Below, piece after piece: positions 3,001 to 51,626 of a stretch of DNA of 64,000 bases. This DNA comes from a virus. How positions within the stretch are numbered: the stretch's first letter is position 1; each line of letters opens with the position of its first letter. Where the stretch lies: the IMG/VR virus record IMGVR_UViG_3300044639_001144; one strand, 5' to 3'. Below the pieces are notes generated by a model that made no database searches, was not told the origin of the DNA, and was given only the letters and a program-made list of their open reading frames with translations. The translations under genes were made by a program, and so were the position numbers.

Positions 3001-3590
3001 CCGGCAGTAAGTATGTTACCACCTAATATATTACCAGTAGCAGTTAATAATCCAGCAGATAAAATATTAGCGCCATTTATATTGCCAGTTGCCGTGAATG
3101 CTGATGCGCCTAATATTCCACTAATTGGAACAAAAGTTAAAAATGGTGAATTCCAAATTGTCTGAGCGTTAGCACCGTCATCTGCAACAAAATCAATGTA
3201 AAAAGTATTTGCCGAGCCGCTAAATGTTGTGTTTATAGTATTGGCAACAACGTTAGTTAGTAGGTTACCATTACCAAATAGGTAATTGCCAACAATGTTG
3301 CCCGTTGTACTGATTAAACCAGACGATGTTAAACTAGTTAATGTTCCTACTGATGTAATATTCGGTTGAGCATTGGTAGTAACTGTTTGAGCAGTAGTAA
3401 CTGTGCCGGAAATATTACCTACGATATAATTACCGTAGATATTTCCAGCAGCTGATATATTACCAGATGCACCAATATTAACAAATCCCGTCGCAGACCT
3501 AGTCCACGTGTTGTTAGCAGTGGAAAATACGTAAACAATATTGTTTACGGTTGCGGTTTGCCCATTTACGGGCGATACGGGAAATGCCAT
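1..3590 (-). CDS. Long fibre/appendage protein, runs off the left window edge (>1190 aa); absent from the ORF track
   Basis: ATG at 3590-3588 overlaps the upstream stop (TAATG). It begins MAFPVSPVNGQTATVNNIVYVFS..., paralogous to the N-terminus of 3590..10246. It has G-N-[IV]-T repeats and a tail-fibre-type PYIDFNSSANYVDFDARIQ motif near 1615-1670. The frame is still open at the window edge (spot-checked, not every codon read). Confidence 0.8.
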   Translation of the reverse strand, partial: MAFPVSPVNGQTATVNNIVYVFSTANNTWTRSATGFVNIGASGNISAAGNIYGNYIVGNISGTVTTAQTVTTNAQPNITSVGTLTSLTSSGLISTTGNIVGNYLFGNGNLLTNVVANTINTTFSGSANTFYIDFVADDGANAQTIWNSPFLTFVPISGILGASAFTATGNINGANILSAGLLTATGNILGGNILTAGLISATSTITSAANITGGNLLTAGLISSTGAITGAALTGTSLTVSTGNITGGNLLLSGAITDSGQLDIQTSAGNANIVLTPNGTGNVNTGANLSVTGNVQAGNVRTAGLISATGNINGGNIVTSRVVVSGNAAVNTLVSITDTAPQGTGAAFSVTNAGNTISILPNISAGSFNSLQSNGDIAILTTGPTIGNVGFSIIPWAGGTNGIKMNTVSNVTTITLAAATLSTTGNITGGIGNLTTGNILTPGIMSSTGNAIHGNILTAGIMSSTGNAIHGNILTAGLISATSTITSAANITGGNILTAGIMSSTGNAIHGNILTAGLISATSTITSAANITGGNILTAGLMSSTGNAIHGNILTAGLITATGNVTGGNILTAGAVSSAGIVTAASVVGGVITGSSTSVTGATVAASVTANTATGRVGLGTDGGGSLTLGFQANNASATTPYIDFNSSANYVDFDARIQASGNTGTTGAGTLTVTAAILAASALFSAAGNVIGGNILTAGIMSSTGNAIHGNILTAGLVSATGNITGNFILGNGSQLTGIITSVSNVVNGGSNLNIAAANANVTISVSTVGNVAVFSPTGVSVLGTIAGNGNITGGNLLTAGLISSTGTITGSSHLGAVVSVTANVTGGNLLTAGLISATSTITSAANVVGGNITTAGLVTATGNVTGGNILTAGIMSSTGNAIHGNILTAGIVSATANVTGGNVLTAGLISSTGNITANYHIGNGSTLTSLTGGNVTGTVANATFAVSAGSAVGTAATVTTNAQPNITSVGTLTSLTSSGLISTTGNIAGGNLSGTLITGTLATAAQPNVTSLGTLTSLSVTGNTTGGNFTTSGTISVGGITLSGNLIVGAGPTLTIDPNGSGGTDGNVVITGNLTVNGTTTTINSNTITTNDLQINMANNAANATAANNGGIGVGPAGAEYATLLYNTASNVWVSSLGISSVGNITAGLGITATGNLAGGNISTAGLISATGTITTTSGIVLNNGLSDGAGIQF

Positions 3591-10274: not shown

Positions 10275-10282
10275 TATTTATA
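10275..10282 (-). promoter_or_regulatory. T4-type late promoter TATAAATA
   Basis: Perfect consensus upstream of the 2218-aa fibre gene. The core TAAATA also occurs on the minus strand at 11356, 17883, 21579, 22727, 28387, 29396, 30388, 31792, 31920, 32706, 37024, 38892 and 51647, and on the plus strand at 22772, 23960, 51716, 59571 and 59985. Confidence 0.8.
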
Positions 10283-11416: not shown

Positions 11417-14400
11417 TTATCTAATACCAACTACAACCTCTATAATACCATTTTCGCCAGTAAAATCAGCAAGAGCTTTACCAATTACTGTACCAACTGC
11501 TGGATTTGCTTCAGCACGAGCTGTACCGTTGCCATTACTTACTAGCATATCACCCTTACGCACAGTGCCGGTTACGCTACATGGAACACGCCCTTGTAAG
11601 GCCACGGCCACAACATTTTCACCAATTAATCCGCTGTTCATTAAGTAACTTGGATTAGTTGATACAATGCCAGCTACTTTAGCATCGCTAGCAACAGTAC
11701 TTCCTGTTACTTCTAATTCACCACCAAACGATACTACTGTTCCAGGAGCATATTCTGCGTCTGCTAAGTATAATTCAGCTAAGTCAGCGTATAAGGCTGA
11801 GGTTGATTGAGCAAATACTCTGTTAAAGTAGTTACTTGAGCTACCAATATTTCCTACTGCATTACCATTTGAATTAACAATATTTCCTGCTGTAATTGTA
11901 CCTGTACCAACTGACAAGTTACCACCGTTTATATTTCCAGTTGCTGATATTAATCCAGCTGTTCTGACATTACCTGCTTGAACATTACCAGTAACACTTA
12001 CGTTAGCACCTGTATTAACATTACCTGTGCCGTTTGGAGTTAATACAATATTAGAATTAGCAGCACTAGTTTGAATATCTAATTGACCTGAGTCAGTAAT
12101 TGCTCCACTTAGCAGCAAGTTACCACCAGTAATATTACCAGTTGATACCGTTAAATTTGTTCCAGTTAATGCTGCGCCTGTTATGGCGCCAGTTGAACTA
12201 ATTAAACCTGCTGTTAGAAGATTGCCACCAGTAATGTTTGCTGTTACAGCTAAACTACCCAAAGTACCAACTGAAGTAATACTTGTTTGTGATGCTGTGG
12301 CAATAGTACCAATTAAACTAGCACCAGAGACATTACCAACAGCACTAATACCTAAACTTGATACCCAAACATTCGCAGATGTGTTATACAGCAATGTCGC
12401 ATATGCCGAACCTACTGGCCCAACCTCAATTCCACCGTTATTAGCAGCGGTAGAGTTAGCAGCATTATTGGCCATGTTAATTTGTAAATCGTTTGTACTA
12501 ATTGTATTTGAATTAATAGTTGTAGTAGTACCATTAACTGTCAAGTTACCAGTAATAACCACGTTACCATCAGTTCCACCTGATCCATTTGGATCAATAG
12601 TTAGAGTAGGGCCAACACCTACGATTAAGTTACCACTTAATGTAATACCTCCAACTGATATTGTGCCAGCCGTAGTAAAGTTGCCGCCAGTAGTATTACC
12701 TGTTACACTTAAACTACCCAATGTGCCAACGCTAGTAATACTTGTTTGTGATGCTGTGGCAATAGTACCAATTAAACTAGCACCAGAGACATTACCAGTA
12801 GCTGAAATTAATCCACCTGTCAATAAGTTGCCGCCAGTAGTATTACCTGTTACACTTAAACTTGTTAATGTACCTAAACTAGTAACATTAGCTTGAGCAT
12901 TACCTGTTACAGTAGCCGCAGTAGTAGCTGACCCTGCAGTAGTGGCTGATCCTGCCGAAGTTGCGTAAGTTGCGTTAGCCACTGTGCCAGTTACATTACC
13001 GCCTGCTATGCTTGATAATGTTGCGCCATTGCCCACAAAATAATTACCAATAATATTACCAGTGGCACTTACTGTTGTTGCAGTAACATTACCGCCTGAT
13101 ATATTACCATTGGCATTTTGTGTTACAATTGGTGCGCCACCAAAACTTAATGTTGTGGCATTAGCAGTAATATTAGATCCACCAATGAATATTGTGTTGC
13201 CACTTATCCATAAGTTACTCCAACGATTAGTACTGTTACCTAAACTTTGTGTATTATTACCATTAGGATTTAAATTACCAGTTACTGTGATTTGCGTTGC
13301 GCTAACATTAATAACGTTTGAATTACCAACCGCCATGTAAATGTCTCCACCAGGAGAAGCAATGTTAACTTGGCTATTGCCACTTTGAATTCTTGATGCT
13401 ACAACATTACCACCACCTACGTTTGTAAGATATGTACCATCTCCGTAAATGAATCCATTTCCAGAATTAACTACTAAATTACCCGTAATAGCAACGTTAG
13501 CATTTGAATCAGTTACACCTATCACAGCGTTTCCACTGCTGTTACTAATACTCATTACAGATGTAGTAGTTGTAATTTCACGAACATCGATTGTATCGCC
13601 AACTACGGGTGCTTCTGTAAATGTCAATACACAAGTAGGATCCACTCCGCTTACTGAATATGCGGTAGTTGGAATTTGAACAATACCGTTAATAGTAACA
13701 ATACAACTATCAGTAGTTTGACTTGAACCTAAGGTAAACGCAGTAGTAACTCCGTCGCCATTAAATTGTTCATTTTGAATAATAGTGAATTCACTGCCAC
13801 TAACATCAACCCAAACAGATCCATTCCATACTTCCAAGTAACTAAATGATGTATTCCATCGGAACATACCAATTGCTGGAGATCCAGGACGCTGAGCAGT
13901 ATTACCAACTGGTAGTAACATAGAGTCTGTGGCATTAATTGCCAGTGTAGCACCTGTTGTTTGTGTAACATTAGCACCTAGTGTTACTGAGTTAGCTGCT
14001 GTATCAACTAGGAAAGTTGTACTAGATTGGATATTGCCAGTAGAACTTATAATGCCAGCAGTTAAAATATTGCCGCTAGTTAAATTGCCAGTAGAACTAA
14101 ACTCGCCAACTGTTAATACGTTTCCTGCTATAACATTACCAGTAGCACTAAATTCTCCACCAGACAATACATTTCCACTAGCACTAACGTTACCTGTGCT
14201 TACATTGCCACTAGTAACATTACCGCCCACGCTTACATTTGTTATACCATAAATGTTATTAGCTGTTACATCTAAAGAAACACTTAAATTAGAAACTACA
14301 TTACCTGATAAACTTAATTGATTAGCATTAATACTAGCATTAGTATCGACATTTCCCAATAAAGTCACACCTTGATCGTAAAATGTAGCAACTACATTTG

Positions 14401-17400
14401 AACCACCACCAACAGCAATGACTAAATTGCCATCTGCGCTCGCAATATTAGCATAACTTCCGCCGTTACTGATCTTAGTTGAAGAAACGTTAGCAGCATT
14501 AATGTTACTGATATATGCGCCATCGCCAATGAAGTAATTTCCAGTTGAAATATTACCAAGGGCACTCATTTGTCCCGATGTATCAATGTTACCAACAGTA
14601 ACATTGCCACTTGTGCTGATAATACCAGATCCAACTAATACATTACCACCTGTTATATTTCCAGAAGCACTTACAGTAACTGAACTAACAAGGTTACCAG
14701 TAATATTACCAGAAGAACTTACATCTCCGCCTGTTAATATATTTCCACCTGTAATATTACCTGCTGCTGATACACTAGCTGTTGTAAATAAATTATTTGA
14801 AGTAACATTGCCTGTAACATTCAATCCGCTAGTTACATTGCCACTTAAACTTAGCGTATTTCCATTTAATGCGTTATTAGAAACAATATTTCCAAACGCC
14901 GAAACATCGGCAACAGCAACTAAATTACCAGCCGCTACATTACCAGTTACATTCAATGTAGATGTTACATTGCCACTTAGACTTAACGTATTTCCATTTA
15001 ATGCGTTATTAGAAACAATATTTCCCAATGCCGAAACATCATATACAGAAACTACATTACCTGAAATAATATTACCAGTTACATTCAATGTTGATGTTAC
15101 ATTGCCACTTAAACTTAAATTGCCGGTATTAACAACAGTAAGAGCATTAATTACATTTCCTGTAATTTGATTATCAACGTTTAAATTGCCAAGTACATTA
15201 CCGCTTAATGAAATATTAGTAACTGAAATATTGCCAGCAGAAAGATTTCCAGTAACGCTAAATGTAGTCGCATTTATAACATTACCTGTTATACTACCAG
15301 TGACACTTAAACTTGATCCCGTCGCATCACCAATATTTGGTGTAACTAGTGGAGCATTAGCAGGAATGTAAAGTTGATTGCTACCATTTCTACTGATAGT
15401 ACTGCCATCATATAATGCGTCAATAACTGTGCCAGTTACACTGATTGCGTTACCACCAGTATATTGACCAGCACCAGAAAATTGAGACCAAAGAATTTGT
15501 GTTGTACCAACGGTAATTGGATTATTAGTTATACATACCCAACCAGTATCTGCTTGAGTTGAACCATATTCAACAAAAGTAAATGACGATGCCATTTCTG
15601 TGCCGATATCAAAATCAATGGCACGAGTCAATACATACGCAACACTTGGACTGCCCGCTGTTGTAACGGTATAGATACCGTTAAACGCAGCTGATTGTGT
15701 TGTGTTATTGACAAATGCGCCAACTTCATTTTTAATTAATACACGTTCGCCTGCTGATACTACGGTACCATCAATTGTTAAGTTACCAACTGCGGCTCCT
15801 GTTAGGGTTGCGCCAACACCGCTTGATCCATTATTGTAAGTATAGCCACCGCCAAAAATGTTGCCTGTAGTAGCATAAGCCACCGATGCTTTAAGATCAA
15901 GTCCCTGCGCTACACTATCAACATATTGTTTGTTTGCTACATCTAATGCCGCAACAGGATCTGGTACGTTTGTAATCCATGTATTACCAGCATTAATGTT
16001 ACCAGTTACACTAAATTGTAATCCCGCGTATGTGCTGGTAACAATAAGTGTGTTACCCGTAATAGCATTACCAACAAAAGTTTGATTTGTGATAATATTT
16101 CCGGCAGCACTTATAATATTTCCAGAATATACATTACCTGTATAAACGCCACCAACTGCGCTAACATCAGCAGCAGAAATTAAGTTTCCGGCAGATACAT
16201 TACCCGTTGCTGTCATGAAACCAGATGTTGATACATTTCCAACGGTAACAGTTCCTGTAGAACTAATTACACCAGGAGTGGCAATATTGCCAGCTGCTAC
16301 ATTGCCTGTTACGTTTAATGCGCTAGTTACGTTGCCACTTAGATTTAATGTATTTCCATTTAATGCGCTGTTTGCGACAATGTTACCTAGTGCCGAAACA
16401 TCGGTAGTTGCAACAATATATTGTGCAATTACATTGCCAGTTACGTTTAATGCTGATGTTACATTGCCACTTAGGCTTAATGAATTAGCATTAATTGCTG
16501 CGTTTGTCGAAACATCACCGACAAAACTTATTCCTGTATCATAGAAAGTGGCAACTACATTTGAACTTGCGCCAACAGCAATGACTAGGTTGCCATCTAC
16601 ACTGGCAATGTTCGCATATGTATTACCGTTTGAAATTTTTGTTGATGAAACGTTGGCTGCGTTAATATTACTGATATATGCGCCATCGCCAATGAAATAA
16701 TTTGCGGTTTGAATATTACCAACTGCGCTTACTAACCCGGCAGTCAATAAATTAGCACCATACACATTACCAGTTGCTGTCAATGTTGTCGCAGCAATTA
16801 CATTAGCACCAGTAATATTGCCTGATGCGCCTGTTGTTGAAAAATTCGCAGCGGTAACATTTCCGCCAGCACTAATATCTGTTGTTGCGCTAACATTGTT
16901 GCCATATACATTACCAGTAGCACTTAAATTGTTTACTGCGCTAATATTATTGGCTGTAATGTTACTTGTTACGTTTAAATCGCTGGTTACGTTGCCACTT
17001 AAACTTAATGTATTTCCATTTACTGCGTTATTAGCAACAATATTACCCAATGCTGAAACATCGGTAATAGCCACTAGATTACCGGCGGTAGCTGTGCCAG
17101 TAGCACTTACATTACCAGTAAAATCAACTCCATTGTTATAAAACGTTGAAACCAATACATTGGCAATTGTAATTACCAAGTTACTATCAACAGACCCAAT
17201 GTTAGCTGAACTATTTCCGTTACTAATCTTAGTCGCAGAAACGTTTGCAGCGTTAATATTACTAATATATGCGCCATCGCCAATAAGGAAATTGGCTGTA
17301 GTAATATTTCCAGTAGAACTTATTTGTCCTGTAGTAGCAATATTGCCAACAGTAATATTACCAGAAATATTCAATGGACTTACAATATTACCGCCTATTG

Positions 17401-17863
17401 AAACATTTCCTGCAATTAATAATTCACCAGTTACATTGGCACTACCTGTAACAAGGTTTGCATAACTAAGAATATTAATGGTTGTGTTATCGCCCGCACC
17501 AGAATCCGTGTAGACTGTCACAAATGCTGTTGAACTCTCGTCCCAAACGAAAGCTATGTTATTTGATGTACCACGTTGACCAATATAACCAATATCTAAT
17601 GTGGGGGAAGCTGTTTGGTTACTGGCTAATAGCAGTAAAGGATCTTCAATTGTTACGTTTGTTGTGTCAATTGCGGTAACATTACCAGAAACTGATAGGT
17701 TACCAGTAATTGTTAAGTCGGATCCGTATGTTAAATTGTTGGCAAGTAGAACTGAGGTCACCGAATAAGGCTGAACTTTAGTGTTCGCATTAATACCAAA
17801 ATATATATTTCCACTGATAGCATCAGTTATTTGATTATTATTAATTCTGGTTAGATTGCTCAT
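11417..17863 (-). CDS. 2148-aa fibre protein with C-terminal chaperone/autocleavage domain
   Basis: GN[IV][TS] repeats, DVANKQYVD motif, G.RVLIKNE...NGIY module, LPVGNTAQRP motif, C-terminal ADLAE...ALQGRVPC...KGD domain. Confidence 0.8.
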   Translation of the reverse strand: MSNLTRINNNQITDAISGNIYFGINANTKVQPYSVTSVLLANNLTYGSDLTITGNLSVSGNVTAIDTTNVTIEDPLLLLASNQTASPTLDIGYIGQRGTSNNIAFVWDESSTAFVTVYTDSGAGDNTTINILSYANLVTGSANVTGELLIAGNVSIGGNIVSPLNISGNITVGNIATTGQISSTGNITTANFLIGDGAYISNINAANVSATKISNGNSSANIGSVDSNLVITIANVLVSTFYNNGVDFTGNVSATGTATAGNLVAITDVSALGNIVANNAVNGNTLSLSGNVTSDLNVTSNITANNISAVNNLSATGNVYGNNVSATTDISAGGNVTAANFSTTGASGNITGANVIAATTLTATGNVYGANLLTAGLVSAVGNIQTANYFIGDGAYISNINAANVSSTKISNGNTYANIASVDGNLVIAVGASSNVVATFYDTGISFVGDVSTNAAINANSLSLSGNVTSALNVTGNVIAQYIVATTDVSALGNIVANSALNGNTLNLSGNVTSALNVTGNVAAGNIATPGVISSTGTVTVGNVSTSGFMTATGNVSAGNLISAADVSAVGGVYTGNVYSGNIISAAGNIITNQTFVGNAITGNTLIVTSTYAGLQFSVTGNINAGNTWITNVPDPVAALDVANKQYVDSVAQGLDLKASVAYATTGNIFGGGYTYNNGSSGVGATLTGAAVGNLTIDGTVVSAGERVLIKNEVGAFVNNTTQSAAFNGIYTVTTAGSPSVAYVLTRAIDFDIGTEMASSFTFVEYGSTQADTGWVCITNNPITVGTTQILWSQFSGAGQYTGGNAISVTGTVIDALYDGSTISRNGSNQLYIPANAPLVTPNIGDATGSSLSVTGSITGNVINATTFSVTGNLSAGNISVTNISLSGNVLGNLNVDNQITGNVINALTVVNTGNLSLSGNVTSTLNVTGNIISGNVVSVYDVSALGNIVSNNALNGNTLSLSGNVTSTLNVTGNVAAGNLVAVADVSAFGNIVSNNALNGNTLSLSGNVTSGLNVTGNVTSNNLFTTASVSAAGNITGGNILTGGDVSSSGNITGNLVSSVTVSASGNITGGNVLVGSGIISTSGNVTVGNIDTSGQMSALGNISTGNYFIGDGAYISNINAANVSSTKISNGGSYANIASADGNLVIAVGGGSNVVATFYDQGVTLLGNVDTNASINANQLSLSGNVVSNLSVSLDVTANNIYGITNVSVGGNVTSGNVSTGNVSASGNVLSGGEFSATGNVIAGNVLTVGEFSSTGNLTSGNILTAGIISSTGNIQSSTTFLVDTAANSVTLGANVTQTTGATLAINATDSMLLPVGNTAQRPGSPAIGMFRWNTSFSYLEVWNGSVWVDVSGSEFTIIQNEQFNGDGVTTAFTLGSSQTTDSCIVTINGIVQIPTTAYSVSGVDPTCVLTFTEAPVVGDTIDVREITTTTSVMSISNSSGNAVIGVTDSNANVAITGNLVVNSGNGFIYGDGTYLTNVGGGNVVASRIQSGNSQVNIASPGGDIYMAVGNSNVINVSATQITVTGNLNPNGNNTQSLGNSTNRWSNLWISGNTIFIGGSNITANATTLSFGGAPIVTQNANGNISGGNVTATTVSATGNIIGNYFVGNGATLSSIAGGNVTGTVANATYATSAGSATTAGSATTAATVTGNAQANVTSLGTLTSLSVTGNTTGGNLLTGGLISATGNVSGASLIGTIATASQTSITSVGTLGSLSVTGNTTGGNFTTAGTISVGGITLSGNLIVGVGPTLTIDPNGSGGTDGNVVITGNLTVNGTTTTINSNTISTNDLQINMANNAANSTAANNGGIEVGPVGSAYATLLYNTSANVWVSSLGISAVGNVSGASLIGTIATASQTSITSVGTLGSLAVTANITGGNLLTAGLISSTGAITGAALTGTNLTVSTGNITGGNLLLSGAITDSGQLDIQTSAANSNIVLTPNGTGNVNTGANVSVTGNVQAGNVRTAGLISATGNINGGNLSVGTGTITAGNIVNSNGNAVGNIGSSSNYFNRVFAQSTSALYADLAELYLADAEYAPGTVVSFGGELEVTGSTVASDAKVAGIVSTNPSYLMNSGLIGENVVAVALQGRVPCSVTGTVRKGDMLVSNGNGTARAEANPAVGTVIGKALADFTGENGIIEVVVGIR

Positions 17864-17904
17864 AAAATTCCCTATGTAGGAGTATTTATGTCAGATTGTT
17901 AAAT

Positions 17905-19548
17905 TCAATATCCGCCAGTCAATGCAGTTCTTTTCCAAGTATTTGTGGCTGTACAAACGTAGATATAATTAGTATCCCAACATATTTGCCCTATTGAACC
18001 TGTTGCATTTGATGCTTTTGTCTGTTGAGGAGATGTTAATAATCCGCCAACAGTAATGTTACCAGCAGCACTTACTGAATAATTTATATCAAAAGAACTT
18101 GAAGTCATTGTGGCAAATGTATTATTTGCTGTGGTAAACAGTATATTACCATAAGGAGTTACATTGATAGCACTATTTCCTGCACTATTAGTTAAATATG
18201 ATACTTGTGACAAGTAAGAAATAAAACGAATGTCTATTATATCTGTATTAAATGGGGTTTGAGTAAATGATATCGAATTACCAGTAACTGAATATGCGTT
18301 TCCTGGTTGCTGCCATACTCCGTTAATTGAAACCAATACGCTTGATGTAGTGGATTCTTGATTTAACGTAAATGTATTGCCAGTGCCATCCGGAGTAATT
18401 TGTTGATTAGAAATAGAACCAGGGGCAATAACATTACCACCCGCAACCCATTGTACACCATCATAAGTTTCCGCAGAATCTAATGTAATATTGAATCTTG
18501 TTGTTCCTGTTGGTGGACTAACTGGTCTTTGAGCAGTATTTCCAGATGGAAGTACTATGCCAGAATTTCCAGCAAATGCTATTAAATTTCCAGTTGAACT
18601 AAGGGTAGTATCTACGATAGTAATATTAGCAAGAGTAACATTGCCATTTACACTTAAATTGGCCAATGTTCCTAATGTTGTCAAACTACTAAAGATAACA
18701 TTACTAGATAATGTATTACCAATCAAAGAATTAGCATATGTAATAATACCAGTTAATTGACTACCGTTGCCAAGAATAAAGTTACCAGTTACGTTACCAG
18801 TCGCACTAATCAATCCAACTGTTAATATATTACCACTAGAAGTGTTTCCACTAACAGTCATTACATTAGTTGCTTGATCGAATGTGAATCCTGAACTTGC
18901 CCCTGCGTTACCACTATTGTTATATAATACCTGTGTATTTGCTCCAGGAACTGTTATGTTACCTGAAATGTTACCTATTAATGTACCAACAAAGAACCCC
19001 GATGTTGTAATATTACCAGTTGCACTGATTGTATTAGAAACTGCAACATTTCCCAATATACTAACACCAGTTGGAGTAAAGACAGCTACGTTACCAACAG
19101 TACTAACTGATATCGTTACATTAGCATTGGCTGTTGCAATATTTAAATTACTATCACCGTTTACTACATTAGAAACTGATGTAATAATACCAGTTAACTG
19201 TGATCCGTTGCCAAGTATAAAATTGCCGGTTATATTTCCAGTGGCTGAAACTACTCCTCCAGTGATAATGTTGCCACCAGTTACATTACTTGAAGCAGAA
19301 ACCAATCCACTTGTCAATAAGTTACCACCTGTAATATTACCTGAAACAGAAACAGATGATAAAGTTATAGAATTACTCCAAACTCTTGTGTTATTGGTTG
19401 ATATTGTTAAAATGCTGTTATCAGCACCTGCCCCAAGATTAGGTTCAGCTTCGCCTAATGCTAAAAATTCGTATCTAGTAGTACTAAGATTAGCATAAGA
19501 TACTACCGGAGAACGGCCGCTAAGAAGTTTTGTTGTGTTTATTGACAT
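17905..19548 (-). CDS. Virion fibre/structural protein (547 aa)
   Basis: Same repeat family. LPSGNTAQRP and VSINGVWQQP modules, C-terminal GQICWDTNYIYVC...WKR. Confidence 0.7.
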   Translation of the reverse strand: MSINTTKLLSGRSPVVSYANLSTTRYEFLALGEAEPNLGAGADNSILTISTNNTRVWSNSITLSSVSVSGNITGGNLLTSGLVSASSNVTGGNIITGGVVSATGNITGNFILGNGSQLTGIITSVSNVVNGDSNLNIATANANVTISVSTVGNVAVFTPTGVSILGNVAVSNTISATGNITTSGFFVGTLIGNISGNITVPGANTQVLYNNSGNAGASSGFTFDQATNVMTVSGNTSSGNILTVGLISATGNVTGNFILGNGSQLTGIITYANSLIGNTLSSNVIFSSLTTLGTLANLSVNGNVTLANITIVDTTLSSTGNLIAFAGNSGIVLPSGNTAQRPVSPPTGTTRFNITLDSAETYDGVQWVAGGNVIAPGSISNQQITPDGTGNTFTLNQESTTSSVLVSINGVWQQPGNAYSVTGNSISFTQTPFNTDIIDIRFISYLSQVSYLTNSAGNSAINVTPYGNILFTTANNTFATMTSSSFDINYSVSAAGNITVGGLLTSPQQTKASNATGSIGQICWDTNYIYVCTATNTWKRTALTGGY

Positions 19549-19549
19549 A

Positions 19550-19894
19550 TTATGCTGTTAATGTTTCTAGAAAACTCAAAACTAATTGTGCGCTAGTATT
19601 GGCGCTTGCAGAAAGTTGCAATGAATCTCCGTACTGTAAAATTAATCTACCAGTAAGAATACTAGCGGCATCATCAACTGGAATACTATAGTTGTTAATC
19701 AACGAAGTAGAAGCTGTTACATTACCAGTAGTTCTACTTATACCAGCAGAAACTTCAACTGTGCTACCTCCGGTATTACTAACTTGCGCCAATAACACTA
19801 CTGTAGCATATCCCAACGGAGGAGTATATACCGTTGTTGTAGTAGTCGTAACATTTGCTAAAGTTGTTTTAAATAAATTTAATGCGCCTGACAT
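19550..19894 (-). CDS. Small virion structural protein (114 aa)
   Basis: Clean ORF with an AAGGA RBS, tightly coupled to neighbouring structural genes; beta-rich pattern (VYTPP...GRLILQYGDSL). Confidence 0.6.
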   Translation of the reverse strand: MSGALNLFKTTLANVTTTTTTVYTPPLGYATVVLLAQVSNTGGSTVEVSAGISRTTGNVTASTSLINNYSIPVDDAASILTGRLILQYGDSLQLSASANTSAQLVLSFLETLTA

Positions 19895-19915
19895 AATTTT
19901 TCCTTGTTTTGCTGG

Positions 19916-21559
19916 TTAATCGCCTGATATAGCTAAAATGTACGGTGTCATTTGAGCAAATAAACTTTTGTAAAAAGCGTCACCCGTGATAGTTGCTGTT
20001 GCTTGATTAACAATAAATCCGTCACCTACTTTAAAGTTACCTTTTTGATCAGTACTTGTATAAGTTATGACCGCGCCATTTGTGGACACTACTTCATTTG
20101 CTTCAATAGGAATGCCACCATATTGCGGTAATGCAGTGGCAGGATCCGTTCCCGCGCCCACGTACTCAAACGTATGTGCTGAAGCAATAATACTACTGCG
20201 AGTGTAAAATGATATTCCTGTACCGGGAGCAGCATTACCTAAGTATGTTTGCTGTACGCTGACTGTGCTATTTCCTACTCCTGGAATATTAGGAAGAATA
20301 ATGTCAATGGTATAATATTCTGGATCTCCGTCTATTAGTACGACGGTGTTAACATGAGGTTGACCATTAGATAAATTGTCAATAACAAATGTTCCTTGGA
20401 ATTGACTTACAATATTTCCAGAAGTTTGAAGTGGCCCTACGCCGTCAGCCACCAATCCATAGTTGCCTATTGAACAATCTGATCCGTTAAGAGTAATGAA
20501 TGATCCTGATTCAACTTTGACTCCAATATCACAGGCAATTGTATAAATGTTAACTGATTGACTATATGCCGAATTTACAAGATGTATTCCTATACCACCT
20601 CTATTGATAATGGTAAAAAAACCTACAATCATTGCTTTAGTTCCAATACACACATCACCATCAACATACACGGCAGTTCCAGTGGTAGTACTTGAGGTAA
20701 GGTTTTGAATATATGGACTAACAAAAGCTGTAGTTACAGTAGTTGGATCATAACTAAATGCTTTACCAGTATAATCCCGTACAGTTACACCCCATACATA
20801 ACTTCCGCCCGACATGTAAAACATATCACTGCTTGTTACGGTTGGTTTTATGAATACATTTCTTAAATTGTCGCCCATTAATGCTGTATTAGGTGGAATA
20901 GTAATAGGCATATCTTCAACATACGTACCAGGAGCAACGTGAATCGATACGTTGCCTCCTAACCCAGCTGCCATATTCATAGCACTTTCAATTGTTAACA
21001 AAGGGGTTGTTAATCCACCTGTATTATCGTCGTTACCATTTTTTGCTACATATATGATATTAGCACTAGCAGAAGTAATATTTATATTGGCATTAATATT
21101 TTGTGCTGTGACATTACCAGAAACACTAAGATTTCCTGCCAATAACATTAAATTTGTACTTGTGTTAAATGTTAAATTAGAATTGCCACCAAATACACCA
21201 TTAGCGTTAAACTGAATAGCTGTATCTGGACCTGCCGGAGGAGTATTAATATTAGCATAAGCTGTTATGGGCGCACCGTTTGACGTAACACTATTACTAG
21301 TTTGCCATGCATTAACAAGTGTATCAAACCGTAATCCAGCAAATGTGTTAGCACCAGTTTGCCCTAATAATCCCATATCAGTAATTGCACCAGTATTATT
21401 AGCCGCTACTGTTATAAAAGGATCAGTTGTAACTGTTGGAACAGTATAAATTACATTACCATTGAAAACTGTTTGAGCATTTACTGTAAAAATGCCATTT
21501 CCGGCTGGAGTGCCCACATTCAATGTATAGTCAGTATTGATATTTTTAACCGAAGCCAT
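19916..21559 (-). CDS. Structural protein with a right-handed parallel beta-helix (pectin-lyase-like) domain
   Basis: IYVAKNGNDDNTG...PLLTIESA...IHVAPGTYVE..PITIP...LMGDNLR is the typical start of beta-helix tailspike-like domains. Confidence 0.6.
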   Translation of the reverse strand: MASVKNINTDYTLNVGTPAGNGIFTVNAQTVFNGNVIYTVPTVTTDPFITVAANNTGAITDMGLLGQTGANTFAGLRFDTLVNAWQTSNSVTSNGAPITAYANINTPPAGPDTAIQFNANGVFGGNSNLTFNTSTNLMLLAGNLSVSGNVTAQNINANINITSASANIIYVAKNGNDDNTGGLTTPLLTIESAMNMAAGLGGNVSIHVAPGTYVEDMPITIPPNTALMGDNLRNVFIKPTVTSSDMFYMSGGSYVWGVTVRDYTGKAFSYDPTTVTTAFVSPYIQNLTSSTTTGTAVYVDGDVCIGTKAMIVGFFTIINRGGIGIHLVNSAYSQSVNIYTIACDIGVKVESGSFITLNGSDCSIGNYGLVADGVGPLQTSGNIVSQFQGTFVIDNLSNGQPHVNTVVLIDGDPEYYTIDIILPNIPGVGNSTVSVQQTYLGNAAPGTGISFYTRSSIIASAHTFEYVGAGTDPATALPQYGGIPIEANEVVSTNGAVITYTSTDQKGNFKVGDGFIVNQATATITGDAFYKSLFAQMTPYILAISGD

Positions 21560-45776: not shown

Positions 45777-45784
45777 TATTTATA
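45777..45784 (-). promoter_or_regulatory. T4-type late promoter TATAAATA for the tape-measure-like genes
   Basis: Perfect consensus 6 nt upstream of ATG 45770. Confidence 0.75.
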
Positions 45785-46666: not shown

Positions 46667-46843
46667 ATGGATAAAGAGATCAATGATATTAGACTTGAGG
46701 CGTTACGTATGTCTTGGTACATGAGAGGGGGATTACCTTATGATCAAGCCTTACAACTCAGTGTCGCTGAAAGAAAAATAATCAGTGATATCATCAAAGA
46801 TAATATGGAGACAACTAAGAAAAGTGGTTTGCCTTTCTTTTAA
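46667..46843 (+). CDS. 58-codon ORF (hub assembly partner, gp51-like position), possibly expressed as a -1 frameshift extension of the upstream gene
   Basis: MDKEINDIRLEALRMSWYMRGGLPYDQALQLSVAERKIISDIIKDNMETTKKSGLPFF. The frame is open from 46607 and there is no obvious RBS before the ATG. Confidence 0.75.
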   Translation: MDKEINDIRLEALRMSWYMRGGLPYDQALQLSVAERKIISDIIKDNMETTKKSGLPFF

Positions 46844-46899
46844 GTTTTTTGTTTTTTCCATGACCCTCCTTAAGGTTCTGAATGATTACTTTATATTTC

Positions 46900-47416
46900 T
46901 TTTTGATTTAACAGATTAGCTGCGCTAATCCAAGACTCGCATACTGCTCGTCTTATTGTTTTAAGTAGTTGCTTTTAAATACTATTCGTCTAGAACTAAT
47001 GTCATAATTCACCGTAAGCACGGTGAAAAAAATGACCTCTTCGTCTGAGTCCGCAGTCATTTATTATAAAGAGATTGTGCTTTCACACTCGGAGGCGGTT
47101 GACCTGTACCCCCTACTCTAGCTTCACATATCAACGGAACCCTAGTAACCCCATAATAAATCAAAGTCCTATAAGCATGGGTCGTATCTTTTTCACGTTG
47201 CCCAAACCATTTGTTGCCTTAAGTTGGCTTTTGCCTTTGACACCCGAGTAGGCTTGCGCCTCTTCTATCCGAATTGGGTTTCTCACCAATCCTCAACGGG
47301 GATCGAGCAGCCTCGATCAAACGCTGTCAGTGTGATGCCTCCCAGAGTTTCACTGGTTCTGACTAATAGTGTCGGGCTTCCCCTAACTTAGTCTGTCGAT
47401 GCCTATCTAAGATGAT
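46900..47416 (-). ncRNA. Candidate large structured non-coding RNA / hairpin-rich locus, family not recognised
   Basis: Longest gene-free interval in the window, GC-richer than its flanks, with at least 10 helices. GNRA tetraloops (GCAA, GAAA) read correctly only on the minus strand. Confidence 0.55.
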
Positions 47417-47845
47417 TTAAATTTTGTTTTTGATGTGACTACCATGTATACGGCAAACTATTTGTCCGTTATAGTAATCGTCACTTTCTAATACACGATG
47501 CTTAAATTGTTCACGGGCTTCAATATAACTGCATTCCGATTTGGTGTTGCAATAATATAATATTTGCCTAGTGAAATTTTCGATGCCTAACTGTTCGATG
47601 TCTTTATTTAATTCTATGCTGCTGCCGGTGTACTGTTGCCAGTCTGATTCCACTTTACTTTTGATTCTCTTACGTTTTTTGGTGCCGTTCTTAAGTTTTA
47701 CTATTTTATATGTTGTTTTACTAAATTTTGATAGTTTTTTTCCGATATATTTTCTGCCGGATATGTTGTTTGTAATGCAATAAACAAATCCAGCACAATC
47801 TTCCGGTAGTATTTCAACATGAGTGTTTTCAAAAAGCCATGACAT
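47417..47845 (-). CDS. Stand-alone GIY-YIG nuclease (T4 endonuclease II-like)
   Basis: GFVYCITNNISGRKYIGKK...ESDWQQYTGSS...E.REQF...YYNGQI. Confidence 0.85.
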   Translation of the reverse strand: MSWLFENTHVEILPEDCAGFVYCITNNISGRKYIGKKLSKFSKTTYKIVKLKNGTKKRKRIKSKVESDWQQYTGSSIELNKDIEQLGIENFTRQILYYCNTKSECSYIEAREQFKHRVLESDDYYNGQIVCRIHGSHIKNKI

Positions 47846-47881: not shown

Positions 47882-49645
47882 TTATGCTACCTCTACATCT
47901 GTATTATAACTGGTAAATCCGCCATCCTTGATTACTTTGAGTATATTTTCTACTCTTCCGGCTAACTCGTCTCTATGACTTACTAACCAAATTGATTTTT
48001 GTCGCTCACGTGACATTTGTTTTAATAATCCCAACGCTGATTCCACACCTTGTGTGTCAAGCCCGTTGTCAATCATTTCATCAATGAATAATACATTGAT
48101 GGGAGTATATAAGGATTCAAACACATCTCTAAATGCCCATGCCATACTTAAAATAAGTCGATTACGCTCGCCTCTTGACAGATTATCAAAGTCAAGTTCA
48201 CGTCCTAGCTCTTCGATACTAACCGAAAGATCATTTTGAAATACAACAGTATGTGGTAATCCAATACGATCTAAGTAATGTGTTAGTCTTGTGTTAAGAT
48301 ATGATAAGTTTTGTTCAATAATCTTCTTGCGTATGAAACTATCCTTACTGGTGAGTAATTTTAATAAAAATTCTTGATGTTCTTGTAAACGTGTTAAGTC
48401 GTTTAACCCATCGTAAGTAACCTCTGCTAATGCTTGTTCAGTCATTTCAGTAATCTGTTCAGCATAAGGATCAATTTCAGTACTTTTATTTTCTAATTGA
48501 GCTTGCAAGCCAGCAATCGTAGCACGATGCTGTATGGCGTCTTCTTCTTTATCGTAAAACATCTTAGGTGGTTTACCTAAAACTCCCAACGATTTTTGCA
48601 TTGACTCTAATTCCGACAACAACTCACTGTATTCTTTATTTGATACTTGTGAAGTTGTTAATTCTTTTTGTTTTGTCTCCAACACCTGTTTGTGTTTACT
48701 ATCATGGAACGGTTGTCCACACGAATGGCACTCATGATTATCAAGCGTTTTAATCTCAGCTAACAGCCGATTGATTATTTTTTCTTCCCTGCTAATATCT
48801 AATTTAACTCTACTGATTTGTGTAGTTAGCTCATTGATATCTTTACGTTTTTGATCCCATGCTGTGTGATCTTTGTGTGCTTGTATTTCTAAATCGATAT
48901 CAATTTCCTGGAGCGAAGCCAATGCTACTTCAAGTTTTGAAATATCGTCGGTGTTTTTAGTAGTCCAAAGTGTTTGTCTACGTTTTAGCGATTCAATTTG
49001 CTCTAAAATCCTTTTATTAGCATCTTGTACGGCACGTATTCTAAATTCTTCTGCTTGTATAGCATCTTTTGTAGTGCGATTTAGCTCTTTAATCTTATCA
49101 GCACGTTCACTAAGCATAGTAATGCCCAGTAATTGTTCAATGATTGTACGTTGATCATTGGCTTTTAATGATAAAAACGGTTCGGTATAAGTGTTAAGTG
49201 CCATAATATGTTTAAACATATCGTGACTCATACCTAGCATGTCTTCGATTGCTGTTTGAGTTTCTCTACTATCGCCTTGTGCATTATCTTCGGCTTCAGT
49301 TTCTTTGTTATTGACATAAAACTTTAGCAAATTAGGCTTACGTCCACGCTCAATACGATATTGTTGATCACTGATGACAAAATCCAGTGATACAATCATA
49401 TTCTTGCCGTTAGTTTTGTTAACAAGATTATCTCGCCGTATATTACTAAGTGCTACTCCATACAACGCATATGAAAGTGCATTAATAATAGTAGTCTTGC
49501 CAGTGCCGTTTCTACTGCCATCACCGCCTAAGTCTAAGTTTTCGCCTAATACTAATGTTAAATCACGTCGATCAAAGTTAATAGCCTGGGTAGCATTGCC
49601 TACACTCATGAAATTCTTTACAGTTAAATTCTTAATCTGGATCAT
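47882..49645 (-). CDS. gp46: Recombination endonuclease ATPase subunit (Rad50/SbcC-like)
   Basis: Walker A NGTGKTT, Zn-hook CHSC, signature LSRGE, Walker B LFIDE, H-loop VSH. Confidence 0.95.
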   Translation of the reverse strand: MIQIKNLTVKNFMSVGNATQAINFDRRDLTLVLGENLDLGGDGSRNGTGKTTIINALSYALYGVALSNIRRDNLVNKTNGKNMIVSLDFVISDQQYRIERGRKPNLLKFYVNNKETEAEDNAQGDSRETQTAIEDMLGMSHDMFKHIMALNTYTEPFLSLKANDQRTIIEQLLGITMLSERADKIKELNRTTKDAIQAEEFRIRAVQDANKRILEQIESLKRRQTLWTTKNTDDISKLEVALASLQEIDIDLEIQAHKDHTAWDQKRKDINELTTQISRVKLDISREEKIINRLLAEIKTLDNHECHSCGQPFHDSKHKQVLETKQKELTTSQVSNKEYSELLSELESMQKSLGVLGKPPKMFYDKEEDAIQHRATIAGLQAQLENKSTEIDPYAEQITEMTEQALAEVTYDGLNDLTRLQEHQEFLLKLLTSKDSFIRKKIIEQNLSYLNTRLTHYLDRIGLPHTVVFQNDLSVSIEELGRELDFDNLSRGERNRLILSMAWAFRDVFESLYTPINVLFIDEMIDNGLDTQGVESALGLLKQMSRERQKSIWLVSHRDELAGRVENILKVIKDGGFTSYNTDVEVA

Positions 49646-50658
49646 AGGCTCTGGTAAATTTTTAATAACAACTTGGGATCATAGAATTCTGATTCAATAT
49701 TTGTAATTTGATCAGTAACAATTTGATCCACAGACTCAAACTTTATTTCACCTGGGGCTAAATCAGTATCAACTGAGTTAGTCTTAACAGGGATCAACGC
49801 CATTTCGCGTAAATTGTAGTCTTTAATGAATGTTTCTTTAATAAATGTAGCTTCTTCATAACTAATGCCAATGTCTAGCTCAACACGCACAAGCATGTTA
49901 GGTTGGAAGATGTTTGCGCCATTATCAATTGCTTCACTTAGTTTTAGTACACGATATAATGGTTGTCCTGGCCAAGAAAAATACTTGTCTTCCATTCCCC
50001 ATTCTTTAACCATCATGCCACGAGCACTATCTCCAGCATCAGCAAAGTTATGCGGAAAACAGTTACCTATGTAAGTAACATTTTCTTTCTTTTGTCTCAA
50101 GTGAAAGTGACCACTGTACACGCTTTCGAAGCCGTTAAAATGATCTACTTTGATTTCGCCATGATCAGGCATTTCTACCATAGCATTCATTTTAAAATGT
50201 GGTAGTTCAAAGTGACCAAACATATATTGTCCACTTAGTTTATGAATTTTTTTATGATCATCGCCTACTAGCCAAGGGGCAATAGTAACATTGCCTTCAG
50301 TAAACCAATCGTTTACGATAATAATATTAGGAATGTGTTTAGCCCATTCGGCTCCGTGAATATCACGTTTATCACGATAATATAAATCATGGTTGCCGGG
50401 AATGAAATAAAACTTATCAAATGCTTTTGATAATTTTTCCAATGCTCGTACACTAAATTGTAGTGTTTGTAAGTTGATTGAAGCACGATGATTATGCCAA
50501 TCGCCAAGAAAAAGACCGGTTTCGCAACCTTCTTCTTTAGCTTTGGCAATAAACCAATCAATAAATGCTTCACAATCACGATTATGTACTAAACTATTGG
50601 ATTTTAATCCCCAATGTATGTCAGTACATACCGCTGCCTTCTTGAATAAGTTAGTCAT
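49642..50658 (-). CDS. gp47: Recombination endonuclease nuclease subunit (Mre11/SbcD-like)
   Basis: DIHWG, LGDWH, GNHD, GHFE and SGHFH metallophosphoesterase motifs; overlaps the gp46 start. Confidence 0.95.
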   Translation of the reverse strand: MTNLFKKAAVCTDIHWGLKSNSLVHNRDCEAFIDWFIAKAKEEGCETGLFLGDWHNHRASINLQTLQFSVRALEKLSKAFDKFYFIPGNHDLYYRDKRDIHGAEWAKHIPNIIIVNDWFTEGNVTIAPWLVGDDHKKIHKLSGQYMFGHFELPHFKMNAMVEMPDHGEIKVDHFNGFESVYSGHFHLRQKKENVTYIGNCFPHNFADAGDSARGMMVKEWGMEDKYFSWPGQPLYRVLKLSEAIDNGANIFQPNMLVRVELDIGISYEEATFIKETFIKDYNLREMALIPVKTNSVDTDLAPGEIKFESVDQIVTDQITNIESEFYDPKLLLKIYQSL

Positions 50659-50702: not shown

Positions 50703-51626
50703 CTAATCCTGGTTGTATTCGTCAACCGGAATACTAATTACCGGGCCGTGAGCATGTGCTTCGCGCCTACCTGAGTTTTGTCTTGACCAAGAAGGAGTTA
50801 ATCCATGTTGTTCAAGCAAATCATCGCGTATATTTTGATTTTTCTTTTCAGAGTTTAGAATATGTGTAAACGAATTGGTAATGGCTGCTGTATAATAAGC
50901 AAATGGATTTTGTGATTTACTTTCATCAAATCTTAATCCAATTTGTGACAATTGAACTAACGCTGACCCGCGCATTTCTTCGTTATATGTATACCCACGC
51001 CAATTTGAACGTGTAGCATAGCGATCACACAGCTTAATGAACATTGTTGCTAGGGTATGTGTCATAGTACCGTGATCTTTACAAAACTCGCCTGTTTCTA
51101 AATCACCTTTCCAGTGGCTTTTGCCAACCAAATAAGGTTGTTTGTTTTCATCTAATCTGTAATGATAAAATGGAGGAAAAGGTAATCTAATATATTTGGT
51201 TGCAGCAGCATCAGGTTCGATGGGTAAAATTGCATCTAAAATTGCATCGTCGTCGATTAATTCAAGATCAAATATATCTTCAATTTTCTTCTTTTTAGTA
51301 GCACTCTTGGGTATTTTTTTAGGTGCCATGGGTATATGTTCCCATGAAGTTATACGAAATACTACATCAGTATTGGGTATTTTTTTAGGGTCAACAATTA
51401 CTTTAGTTTCTTTTTTAATACGATCAGCACGATTGCGTCTGGCTTCTGCTACTGTACGTTGATTAATTTTACTTAAACTAGGCAAAATCATATCATATTG
51501 ATGATCGTTTGCTGGATCTAAATATGTACAATATGTATTTTTACTTAAATGTATTTGTTTTAACAGATCTCTATTATTGAGATAAATGACTTTTTTTACT
51601 GGTGCTACTATGGGTTTTGTGGCCAC
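50703..51626 (-). CDS. gp55: Late-transcription sigma factor
   Basis: YLNN.DLL, NWRGYTYNEEM and FDESKSQNPFAYYT motifs; gp55-gp47-gp46 synteny; GTG start after AGGAG. Confidence 0.9.
   Translation of the reverse strand: MATKPIVAPVKKVIYLNNRDLLKQIHLSKNTYCTYLDPANDHQYDMILPSLSKINQRTVAEARRNRADRIKKETKVIVDPKKIPNTDVVFRITSWEHIPMAPKKIPKSATKKKKIEDIFDLELIDDDAILDAILPIEPDAAATKYIRLPFPPFYHYRLDENKQPYLVGKSHWKGDLETGEFCKDHGTMTHTLATMFIKLCDRYATRSNWRGYTYNEEMRGSALVQLSQIGLRFDESKSQNPFAYYTAAITNSFTHILNSEKKNQNIRDDLLEQHGLTPSWSRQNSGRREAHAHGPVISIPVDEYNQD

What the first reader, a model, noticed from the sequence alone, without database searches (positions are those of the whole stretch)
46960..47416. Candidate large ornate ncRNA directly downstream of a GIY-YIG nuclease
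Seen: the only long gene-free stretch in a densely coded window, beginning right at the nuclease stop codon on the same (minus) strand and GC-richer than its flanks. Minus-strand helices include GACUAA/UUAGUC (47393-47361), GAUCGAG-GCUG-CUCGAUC (47318-47301), AGGC-GCAA-GCCU (47261-47250), GGC-AAAA-GCC (47235-47226), UGGG..CGU/ACG..CCCA (~47204-47178), GGGGG..GGU-CA-ACC..CCUCC (47113-47091), GUGU-GAAA-GCAC (47088-47077) and GUCAU..UUCACCGU-GCUU-ACGGUGAA..AUGAC (47036-47001). A 9-bp long-range pair AUUUAUUAU/AUAAUAAAU (47161-47153 with 47067-47059) closes a multi-stem domain. GNRA loops and G-U pairs favour RNA on the minus strand. I see no tRNA, tmRNA, RNase P or group II domain V signature. 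Established: phages carry large ornate RNAs (GOLLD, ROOL), and some nucleases partner with adjacent structured RNAs (IscB with omegaRNA/HEARO). Inference: an undescribed phage RNA co-transcribed with gp47-gp46-nuclease, acting either as a nuclease partner or as an R-loop primer for a replication origin.
Basis: partly seen in the sequence, partly recalled or inferred. Interest (0 to 1): 0.85.

Follow-up and report, generated by a model that had tools for sequence, protein, structure and literature searches.

The report
Twin-box structured RNA of lake phages
The gap behind the small nuclease gene holds a real folded non-coding RNA of about 500 bases. Hundreds of uncultured freshwater T4-like phages and some bacterial genomic islands share it, and it carries two identical 7-base boxes that always change together; what it does is not known.

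Summary
Window 46905-47416 (minus strand) encodes a large pseudoknotted RNA. On 54 relatives, 85 proposed pairs are 94.6% paired. 36 pairs show compensatory changes, against 3-11 in slid controls.

Rfam 15 has no family for the window copy. A model built from the core finds divergent homologues whose first ~135 nt are the orphan Rfam motif Polynucleobacter-1, RF01718. The window copy is therefore a member of a larger, mostly uncatalogued superfamily, with a different 5' domain.

This scan had already found the same RNA on other genomes. I re-tested those leads here.

The RNA is not a dedicated partner of the GIY-YIG nuclease:
- the nuclease family is common in phages that lack the RNA;
- extra genes can sit between the two;
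- one phage locus and all bacterial copies have no such nuclease nearby.

The hallmark is two direct 7-nt boxes (47046-47040 and 46991-46985). They are identical in 214 of 215 family members despite at least 13 sequence variants and at least 21 switches. I found no complementary partner.

My best but unproven reading (about 0.3) is that the loop box pairs with the DNA complement of the downstream box. This would anchor an R-loop, as ColE1 RNA II does, and perhaps prime replication.

The parts
47417..47845 (-). 142-aa catalytic-domain-only GIY-YIG protein (SegE type). It is the upstream neighbour, not an obligate partner.
   Evidence: Pfam PF19835, E 8e-33; phrog_447; alignment with RNA-less homologues
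47239..47416 (-). Variable 5' domain of the RNA. It contains a conserved start motif right after the stop codon (47411-47398) and lineage-specific inserted hairpins (47393-47342 and 47261-47250). It also has a covarying hairpin (47318-47301), a GNRA-type hairpin (47292-47271), and two closing helices (47300-47297 with 47246-47243; 47328-47326 with 47241-47239).
   Evidence: helices 1-3; no RF01718 match here
47059..47238 (-). Conserved core. It comprises helix 47229-47225/47217-47213 and helix 47208-47174. A pseudoknot is formed by 47171-47162/47152-47143 together with the long-range helix 47161-47153/47067-47059. About 60 nt (47142-47091) are nearly invariant. A three-way junction carries hairpins 47113-47091 and 47088-47077.
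   Evidence: covariance model R1 hits at 287 bits in the window
47033..47059 (-). Hairpin A, whose loop displays box 1
   Evidence: Duplex test of the stem flanks against shuffled partners. Fixed-column counts are weak because of alignment register (helices 14-16).
47040..47046 (-). Box 1 (7 nt), identical to box 2
47008..47027 (-). Hairpin B, a stable 8-9-bp stem between the boxes
   Evidence: helix 17; 3 pairs covary
46985..46991 (-). Box 2 (7 nt), single-stranded, 55 nt after box 1
46905..46984 (-). 3' tail. It has an A-rich linker, a hairpin with tandem G-A pairs (46954-46932) and a terminal hairpin (46930-46914) that is the likely terminator.
   Evidence: The same two hairpins follow box 2 in L048 and in bacterial copies. 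The simple terminator scan found none, so the 3' end is inferred.

Best explanation
SHOWN: window ~46905-47416 (minus strand) is a single-copy gene for a large pseudoknotted non-coding RNA. It belongs to a superfamily carried by uncultured freshwater T4-like jumbo phages and by genomic islands of small Burkholderiales genomes. The superfamily has a swappable 5' domain (Polynucleobacter-1 in many members, a different one here) and a conserved core. Its 3' module shows the same 7-nt box twice: once in a hairpin loop, and once single-stranded about 55 nt further on.

INFERRED mechanism: while the gene is transcribed, the loop box pairs with the template DNA strand of the downstream box, which has the complementary sequence only if the two boxes are identical. 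This would hold the transcript on its own DNA as an R-loop. It is the principle by which a G-run in ColE1 RNA II pairs with a downstream C-run in the template. The 3' end of the held RNA could then prime DNA synthesis of the phage or the excised island. The large folded body would position the loop and set when the hybrid forms. The neighbouring GIY-YIG nuclease is not required.
For: Real RNA:
- 85 pairs, 94.6% paired, 36 with double changes against 3-11 in slid controls, 0 of 500 shuffles.
- Invariant G-U pairs on the minus strand.
- One copy in each of two complete 337-347 kb genomes.
- Contigs of relatives in a metatranscriptome library (weak).

Box identity:
- 214 identical pairs against 1 with a single mismatch.
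- At least 13 variants in phages and 4 more in bacteria.
- At least 21 state changes on a tree of 64 close members, with both boxes changing together at positions 1, 5 and 7 (13, 9 and 5 times).

No third covarying segment:
- none in the RNA;
- none within about 7 kb;
- none evident in two complete genomes.
This is what is expected if the partner is the complementary DNA strand itself.

Other points:
- Exact identity even at A/G positions argues against a shared RNA partner using G-U wobble.
- Box 1 lies in a loop and box 2 is unpaired.
- The RNA travels without the nuclease and sits in mobile elements: at the end of the replication/recombination gene row in phages, and beside an integrase in G055.
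- From established knowledge: T4 origins oriF and oriG use R-loop transcripts as primers, and ColE1 RNA II uses rG/dC pairing.
Against: - There is no direct evidence of an R-loop, of a replication start, or of the transcript's ends.
- Seven base pairs is a short anchor.
- The locus is a point of convergent transcription, and GC skew shows no turn there.
- The tract after box 2 is only mildly purine-rich (0.60 against 0.54).
- The size and near-invariance of the core (about 60 nt) look more like a catalytic or protein-binding centre than ColE1 RNA II does.
- The mechanism rests mainly on exclusion of other partners.
- The ColE1 analogy came from an earlier unchecked note of this scan.
Confidence: 0.3

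Rival explanations
1. A trans-acting structured RNA whose two boxes bind two copies of an unknown complementary nucleic acid. Alternatively it could be a self-assembling or host-factor-binding RNA like ROOL, GOLLD or raiA, with the boxes as contact sites.
For: It is large, ornate, mobile-element-borne and single-copy, with GNRA and UUCG loops and a near-invariant core. No cis partner was found. Its presence in both phages and bacterial islands suggests a portable function.
Against: No complementary site was found near the gene or in two complete genomes. A host partner would not explain 13 or more variants among close relatives. An RNA partner would tolerate A/G differences through wobble, yet the boxes are exactly identical.
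Confidence: 0.25
2. A ribozyme or self-processing RNA. The conserved core would cut or rejoin at the two identical boxes, excising or circularising the ~55-nt piece that holds hairpin B.
For: The near-invariant ~60-nt core, the pseudoknot and the three-way junction resemble catalytic RNAs. The two sites lie in the same local context, a pyrimidine tetrad before each box. G-rich invariant stretches could pair with both tetrads by wobble (my inspection).
Against: No guide sequence covaries with the boxes. No match to any ribozyme family in Rfam. No member lacks the inter-box segment. No concatemer or junction form was seen in IMG/VR.
Confidence: 0.15
3. A 3'-UTR, terminator or insulator element that ends the early/middle gene row and shields it from the convergent late genes, or that stabilises the mRNA.
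For: It is always the last element before convergent genes, even when extra genes are inserted. Hairpins follow. No separate promoter was recognised.
Against: About 500 nt with a pseudoknot and an invariant core is far more than termination needs. In G055 it precedes co-oriented genes. This reading does not explain the identity of the boxes.
Confidence: 0.08
4. RNA partner or guide of the adjacent domain-only GIY-YIG nuclease.
For: Among RNA-bearing IMG/VR loci with enough upstream flank, nearly all have the nuclease gene directly upstream (100 of 119 loci examined). The protein lacks a DNA-binding domain and has a somewhat longer basic loop in the RNA-bearing clade.
Against: The nuclease family is widespread without the RNA. 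Inserted genes can separate the two. L287 has a full-length Seg-type enzyme instead. L300 and all the bacterial copies I examined lack it. The box variation is restricted, unlike a guide.
Confidence: 0.07
5. Not an RNA: a structured single-stranded DNA element, such as a lagging-strand initiation site or a recombination site with two 7-bp crossover cores.
For: G-T pairs also form in DNA, and identical 7-bp cores are typical of tyrosine-recombinase sites. An integrase lies next to the G055 copy.
Against: GNRA and UUCG loops, pseudoknots and 85 covarying pairs are RNA hallmarks. Part of the family is an accepted Rfam RNA. The phages show no integrase at the locus. A 55-bp circle is physically implausible.
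Confidence: 0.05

Closest known systems
Polynucleobacter-1 RNA motif (Rfam RF01718; Weinberg et al. 2010, PMC2864571)
   Same: In the divergent half of this superfamily, RF01718 (88-119 bits) forms the first ~135 nt. It is followed directly by the same core and twin-box module as in the window. It comes from the same habitats (fresh water, Burkholderiales). Its function is unknown, and the paper only lists it in a table.
   Different: The window copy and its close relatives give no RF01718 match even at E <= 10; they carry another 5' domain. The Rfam model covers 141 nt and omits the core, the pseudoknot and the boxes.
ColE1 RNA II replication primer (works like; from established knowledge)
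   Same: A long folded transcript in which an upstream RNA segment has the same sequence as a downstream stretch of the RNA-like DNA strand, so it can pair with the template and make a persistent hybrid.
   Different: There is no sequence or structural homology. No RNase H site, antisense regulator or DNA start is known here. The context is a phage or island, not a plasmid.
GOLLD, ROOL and HEARO/omega RNAs (large ornate RNAs of phages and mobile elements)
   Same: Size class, ornate multi-helix architecture, carriage by phages and mobile elements, unknown or recently found functions.
   Different: No Rfam match to any of them. No adjacent tRNA genes. No IscB/TnpB nuclease. The twin boxes have no counterpart.
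T4 mobA plus gene 60 bypass cassette (homing endonuclease next to a ~50-nt insert flanked by matched codons)
   Same: An endonuclease gene lies next to a ~50-nt hairpin-containing segment flanked by short identical direct repeats.
   Different: No ORF crosses the boxes, and the spacer before box 1 changes length, so no reading frame is kept. The module also occurs without any endonuclease.

Membership tests
Polynucleobacter-1 (RF01718) | Match to the Rfam covariance model at or above 37 bits | tested here: not met
   The window gives no hit at gathering or at E <= 10. Eight close relatives are also negative, while nine divergent relatives score 88-119 bits.
Twin-box RNA superfamily (uncatalogued; includes RF01718-bearing RNAs) | Shared core detected by a covariance model built from the window's clade | tested here: met
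   R1 scores the window at 287 bits and RF01718-bearing loci at 24-131 bits over the full model length.
Twin-box RNA superfamily | Two identical 7-nt boxes 45-75 nt apart flanking a stable hairpin, each preceded by a pyrimidine tetrad | tested here: met
   Window boxes lie at 47046-47040 and 46991-46985, 55 nt apart. 214 of 215 members have identical boxes, and the bacterial copies do too.
Group I intron | Interrupts a host gene; P3-P7 pseudoknot enclosing a P4-P6 domain; Rfam RF00028 match | tested here: not met
   gp46 is complete and nothing downstream is interrupted. The two pseudoknot strands are adjacent with no domain between them. No Rfam hit.
tRNA / tmRNA / RNase P / 6S / SRP | Detection by ARAGORN or Rfam models | tested here: not met
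Nuclease guide RNAs (omega RNA of IscB/TnpB, HEARO) | Obligate linkage to the nuclease gene and a freely variable guide at one end | tested here: not met
   The linkage is broken in L300, L027, L042 and the bacterial copies. The boxes vary only within a narrow pattern. No Rfam HEARO hit.
ColE1-type R-loop primer | Upstream RNA segment identical to a downstream segment of the RNA-like DNA strand | tested here: met
   The twin boxes
ColE1-type R-loop primer | Persistent RNA-DNA hybrid and a DNA synthesis start at its end | not testable with these tools
   Needs DRIP/S9.6 mapping, 5'-end mapping of nascent DNA or marker-frequency data.
Reverse-transcriptase template RNAs (DRT2-type, retron) | A reverse transcriptase encoded by the element | tested here: not met
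   No RVT_1 in three near-complete phage genomes; no concatemer of the inter-box unit in IMG/VR.

The most novel reading that the evidence does not exclude
The twin boxes reveal a recognition rule based on identity rather than complementarity. A loop of a large mobile-element RNA would read the DNA it was copied from by homology, giving an RNA-anchored R-loop that fires replication of jumbo phages and of bacterial islands. This would be a new class of RNA-defined replication origin. If instead the two like strands pair directly, it would be a new RNA structural principle.
Probability: 0.3. Interest if true: 0.85.

Novelty: new variant of a known kind. Interest (0 to 1): 0.7.

Why it matters
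- A 141-nt orphan motif listed in 2010 turns out to be one optional domain of a ~350-500-nt pseudoknotted RNA.
- That RNA is shared by hundreds of uncultured jumbo phages and by islands in streamlined freshwater bacteria.
- Its two boxes stay identical through many changes, with no complementary partner. This is a rare and clean evolutionary signal and points to an unusual mechanism.
- The signal gives a direct experiment: mutate one box, then both.
- If the RNA marks a replication origin, it would help to annotate and engineer a large group of environmental phages. If not, it is still one of the larger unexplained RNA classes.

Tried and rejected
- Rfam at gathering and at E <= 10 on the window gave nothing in the gap.
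- blastn against isolated phages found no match.
- No whole genome is held for the window.
- Single-sequence MFE is not significant.
- RNAalifold missed the long-range helix, so I set it by hand.
- A search for a complement of the boxes found none inside the RNA, in the flanking kilobases, in the window or in two complete genomes.
- Pairing between the spacers before box 1 and box 2 was no better than in shuffled pairs.
- A weak link between box position 5 and a purine 20 nt upstream of box 2 does not hold in the divergent subfamily.
- A mini-ORF or translational bypass reading is rejected: the spacer length varies and no frame is kept.
- K-turn or box C/D, CsrA-site, anticodon-loop and promoter (-10/-35) readings of the boxes did not fit all variants on inspection.
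- No sigma-70 promoter or canonical terminator was found, and no late promoter lies before the RNA.
- GC skew is uninformative.
- A polypurine tract after box 2 shows only a weak enrichment.
- A concatemer of hairpin B was not found in IMG/VR.
- A test of the RNA gene as an integrase attachment site in G055 found no duplicate of its 3' end within 6 kb.
- The genome contigs pattern scan gave mostly chance hits in GC-rich genomes; only L384 and L351 are real.
- The paper on 10,000 candidate viral RNAs has no held supplement to check, and two 2026 preprints do not mention the element.
- RNA-library contigs cover only parts of the element and come from relatives. They cannot show ends or strand.

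Full report
**1. What is in the window**

The window is part of a T4-like jumbo phage. On the minus strand lie:
- a late sigma factor (50703-51626);
- Mre11-like gp47 (49642-50658);
- Rad50-like gp46 (47882-49645);
- a 142-aa SegE-type GIY-YIG domain protein (47417-47845).

Only ORFs under 60 aa lie between 47416 and 46862. On the plus strand, a baseplate-hub gene ends at 46628. GC rises to 0.46-0.51 inside the gap against 0.30-0.37 around it. ARAGORN finds no tRNA or tmRNA. Rfam finds nothing at gathering or at E <= 10. The minimum-free-energy fold of the window sequence alone is no better than shuffles (z = -1.26), so all evidence for structure is comparative.

**2. Conservation and structure**

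The GIY-YIG protein has more than 590 relatives in IMG/VR. nhmmer found a ~250-nt conserved block (window 46999-47250) downstream of the gene in 42 of 80 loci.

- In an alignment of 33 close relatives, a hand-set structure with a pseudoknot gave 63 pairs, 97.8% paired. 21 pairs had changes on both sides, against 0-3 for slid controls.
- A longer alignment of 54 relatives, running from just after the nuclease stop codon to beyond the second box, gave 85 pairs in 17 helices, 94.6% paired. 36 pairs had double changes against 3-11, with 0 of 500 shuffles reaching this.
- Invariant G-U pairs place the RNA on the minus strand.

It forms a pseudoknot with 47171-47162/47152-47143.

The window's own lineage (with L001 and L003, partly L010 and L011) carries extra hairpins in the 5' domain. 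Such expansions are typical of structured RNAs.

**3. Extent of the family and link to a known motif**

A covariance model of the core (R1) found divergent homologues at 24-131 bits, directly after the nuclease gene, in nearly every locus with enough flank.

Earlier notes of this scan on other genomes named Rfam RF01718. I tested this. Nine divergent loci score 88-119 bits for Polynucleobacter-1 over the first ~135 nt after the nuclease stop, immediately before the R1 core. The window, eight close relatives, L029 and L287 do not match. So Polynucleobacter-1 is an optional 5' domain of a larger RNA, and the window carries a different 5' domain. The 2010 paper lists the motif only in a table, as a possible cis-regulatory RNA of Burkholderiales and fresh water.

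RF01718 also occurs in 3-4 of 151 sampled Burkholderiales genomes of 1.7-1.9 Mb, and on a second contig of a Haliscomenobacter MAG. R1 does not reach these copies. Reading them shows a related core hairpin, the two boxes, the tandem G-A hairpin and a terminator hairpin.

In genome G055 the RNA lies between two gene groups, with no GIY-YIG gene nearby:
- on one side, a Zorya-like defence cluster and a DUF6641 gene;
- on the other, a 224-aa ORF and a small tyrosine integrase.

**4. Relation to the nuclease**

Among 119 further RNA-bearing or pattern-bearing loci, 100 had the GIY-YIG gene upstream on the same strand. Most of these lay within ~330 nt, and a few at 1.0-1.1 kb. Several facts argue against an obligate link:
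- The protein family occurs in 493 isolated phages, 339 of them Synechococcus phages.
- Three examples I checked have gaps of only 29-149 nt downstream and no R1 hit.
- In L027 and L042, one or two unrelated genes sit between nuclease and RNA, and the RNA stays last before the convergent genes.
- L287 has a 355-aa Seg-type enzyme instead.
- L300 has the RNA (114 bits) with no GIY-YIG within 7.7 kb.

The protein alignment shows the same fold and motifs in RNA-bearing and RNA-less clades. The only difference is a slightly longer basic loop in the former. The linkage is therefore best read as conserved gene order.

**5. The twin boxes**

After the core, every member has the same layout:
- a short conserved motif;
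- a spacer;
- a pyrimidine tetrad;
- a 7-nt box;
- hairpin B;
- the same motif, spacer, tetrad and the same 7-nt box again.

The window boxes lie at 47046-47040 and 46991-46985, 55 nt apart.

- Across 215 family tails, 214 have identical boxes. One (L079) differs at one position, G in box 1 and A in box 2.
- Thirteen variants occur in phages and four more in bacteria.
- On a tree of 64 close members built without the box columns, the box changes state at least 21 times. Positions 1, 5 and 7 change 13, 9 and 5 times, in both copies together. Recombination may inflate these counts, but each variant still needs a concerted double change.
- Box 1 lies in the loop of a hairpin whose stem flanks pair better than shuffled partners. 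Box 2 has no local partner.

No segment complementary to the box covaries with it. The phage genomes have one RNA copy and no reverse transcriptase.

**6. Mechanism**

Identity of two direct repeats without a third covarying partner is expected when a strand made at one copy must anneal to the complement of the other. With no reverse transcriptase present, the simplest case is the RNA loop (box 1) pairing with the template DNA strand of box 2, as in persistent-hybrid formation by ColE1 RNA II. T4 itself starts replication from R-loop transcripts at oriF and oriG (established knowledge). This reading accounts for several observations:
- exact identity even at purine transitions;
- the loop display of box 1;
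- the unpaired state of box 2;
- single copy per replicon;
- carriage by mobile elements.

It remains an inference. I have no hybrid, no DNA start and no transcript ends. The locus is a convergent point without a skew signal, and the downstream tract is only mildly purine-rich. I put it at about 0.3. The rivals are an unknown trans partner or assembly (0.25), a ribozyme acting at both boxes (0.15), a terminator or insulator element (0.08), a nuclease partner (0.07) and a DNA-level element (0.05).

**7. Expression**

Eighteen lake or freshwater metagenome runs hold half or more of the stretch's sampled words. Two metatranscriptome libraries hold small parts. Laid on the window, one RNA library has contigs of relatives over the conserved core (one at depth 40) and over the nuclease gene (depth ~6). 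Contigs cannot show strand, ends or level, so this is only a weak hint of transcription.

**8. Verdict**

Relative to the literature, the RNA is a new variant: an extension of, and sibling to, the orphan Polynucleobacter-1 motif. The same RNA class was already met by this scan on other genomes, and my tests agree with those notes.

Noticed in passing
L384 (148-kb contig of a Haliscomenobacter MAG) and L444 (another contig of the same MAG): The MAG holds a close-family copy of the RNA (321 bits) and, on a second contig, an RF01718-type copy. Either phage contigs were binned with a Bacteroidota host, or the binning is an artefact. Burkholderiales copies point to a different host group.
   Followed up: partly
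L449 (G055:C4:62000-81999), about 12262-19947: A Zorya-like defence cluster lies next to the bacterial RNA copy. It comprises a MotB/OmpA-like protein, an EH_Signature protein and an SNF2 helicase fused to an Mrr nuclease. A small tyrosine integrase lies on the other side.
   Followed up: partly
L029:3430-3905 and L074:3444-3918: Downstream of the same nuclease gene lies a ~440-nt non-coding stretch. Its 5' body matches neither R1 nor any Rfam family, but it ends in the same twin-box module. It may be a third 5'/core variant of the superfamily.
   Followed up: partly
L027:3390-4418; L042:3401-5221: One or two unrelated genes (342 aa; 347 and 258 aa) are inserted between the GIY-YIG gene and the RNA and overlap the nuclease stop codon.
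   Followed up: no
L287:2743-4857: Two full-length GIY-YIG homing-endonuclease-type genes (355 and 236 aa) sit in tandem between gp46 and the RNA, in place of the 142-aa domain-only protein.
   Followed up: no
window 10275-10282 and 45777-45784 (minus strand): The T4 late-promoter octamer TATAAATA is depleted in the window (3 copies against 10.8 expected). Two of the three copies lie just upstream of the starts of large minus-strand genes (at 10246 and 45770).
   Followed up: no
window 46751-46861 (minus) and 46667-46843 (plus): A 36-codon ORF with a strong ribosome-binding site lies just after the RNA. It overlaps, in antisense, a 58-codon plus-strand ORF that other notes of this scan link by frameshift to the baseplate-hub gene. 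At most one of the two is likely to be real.
   Followed up: no
L325 (Cyclobacteriaceae MAG chromosome), 828-3602: Three exact copies of the 17-nt core pattern occur within 3 kb, none recognised by the RNA model. This is too many for chance and is unexplained.
   Followed up: no
window 3590-10246 and 11417-17863 (minus strand): Two very large ORFs of 2218 and 2148 aa lie in tandem. I did not examine them.
   Followed up: no
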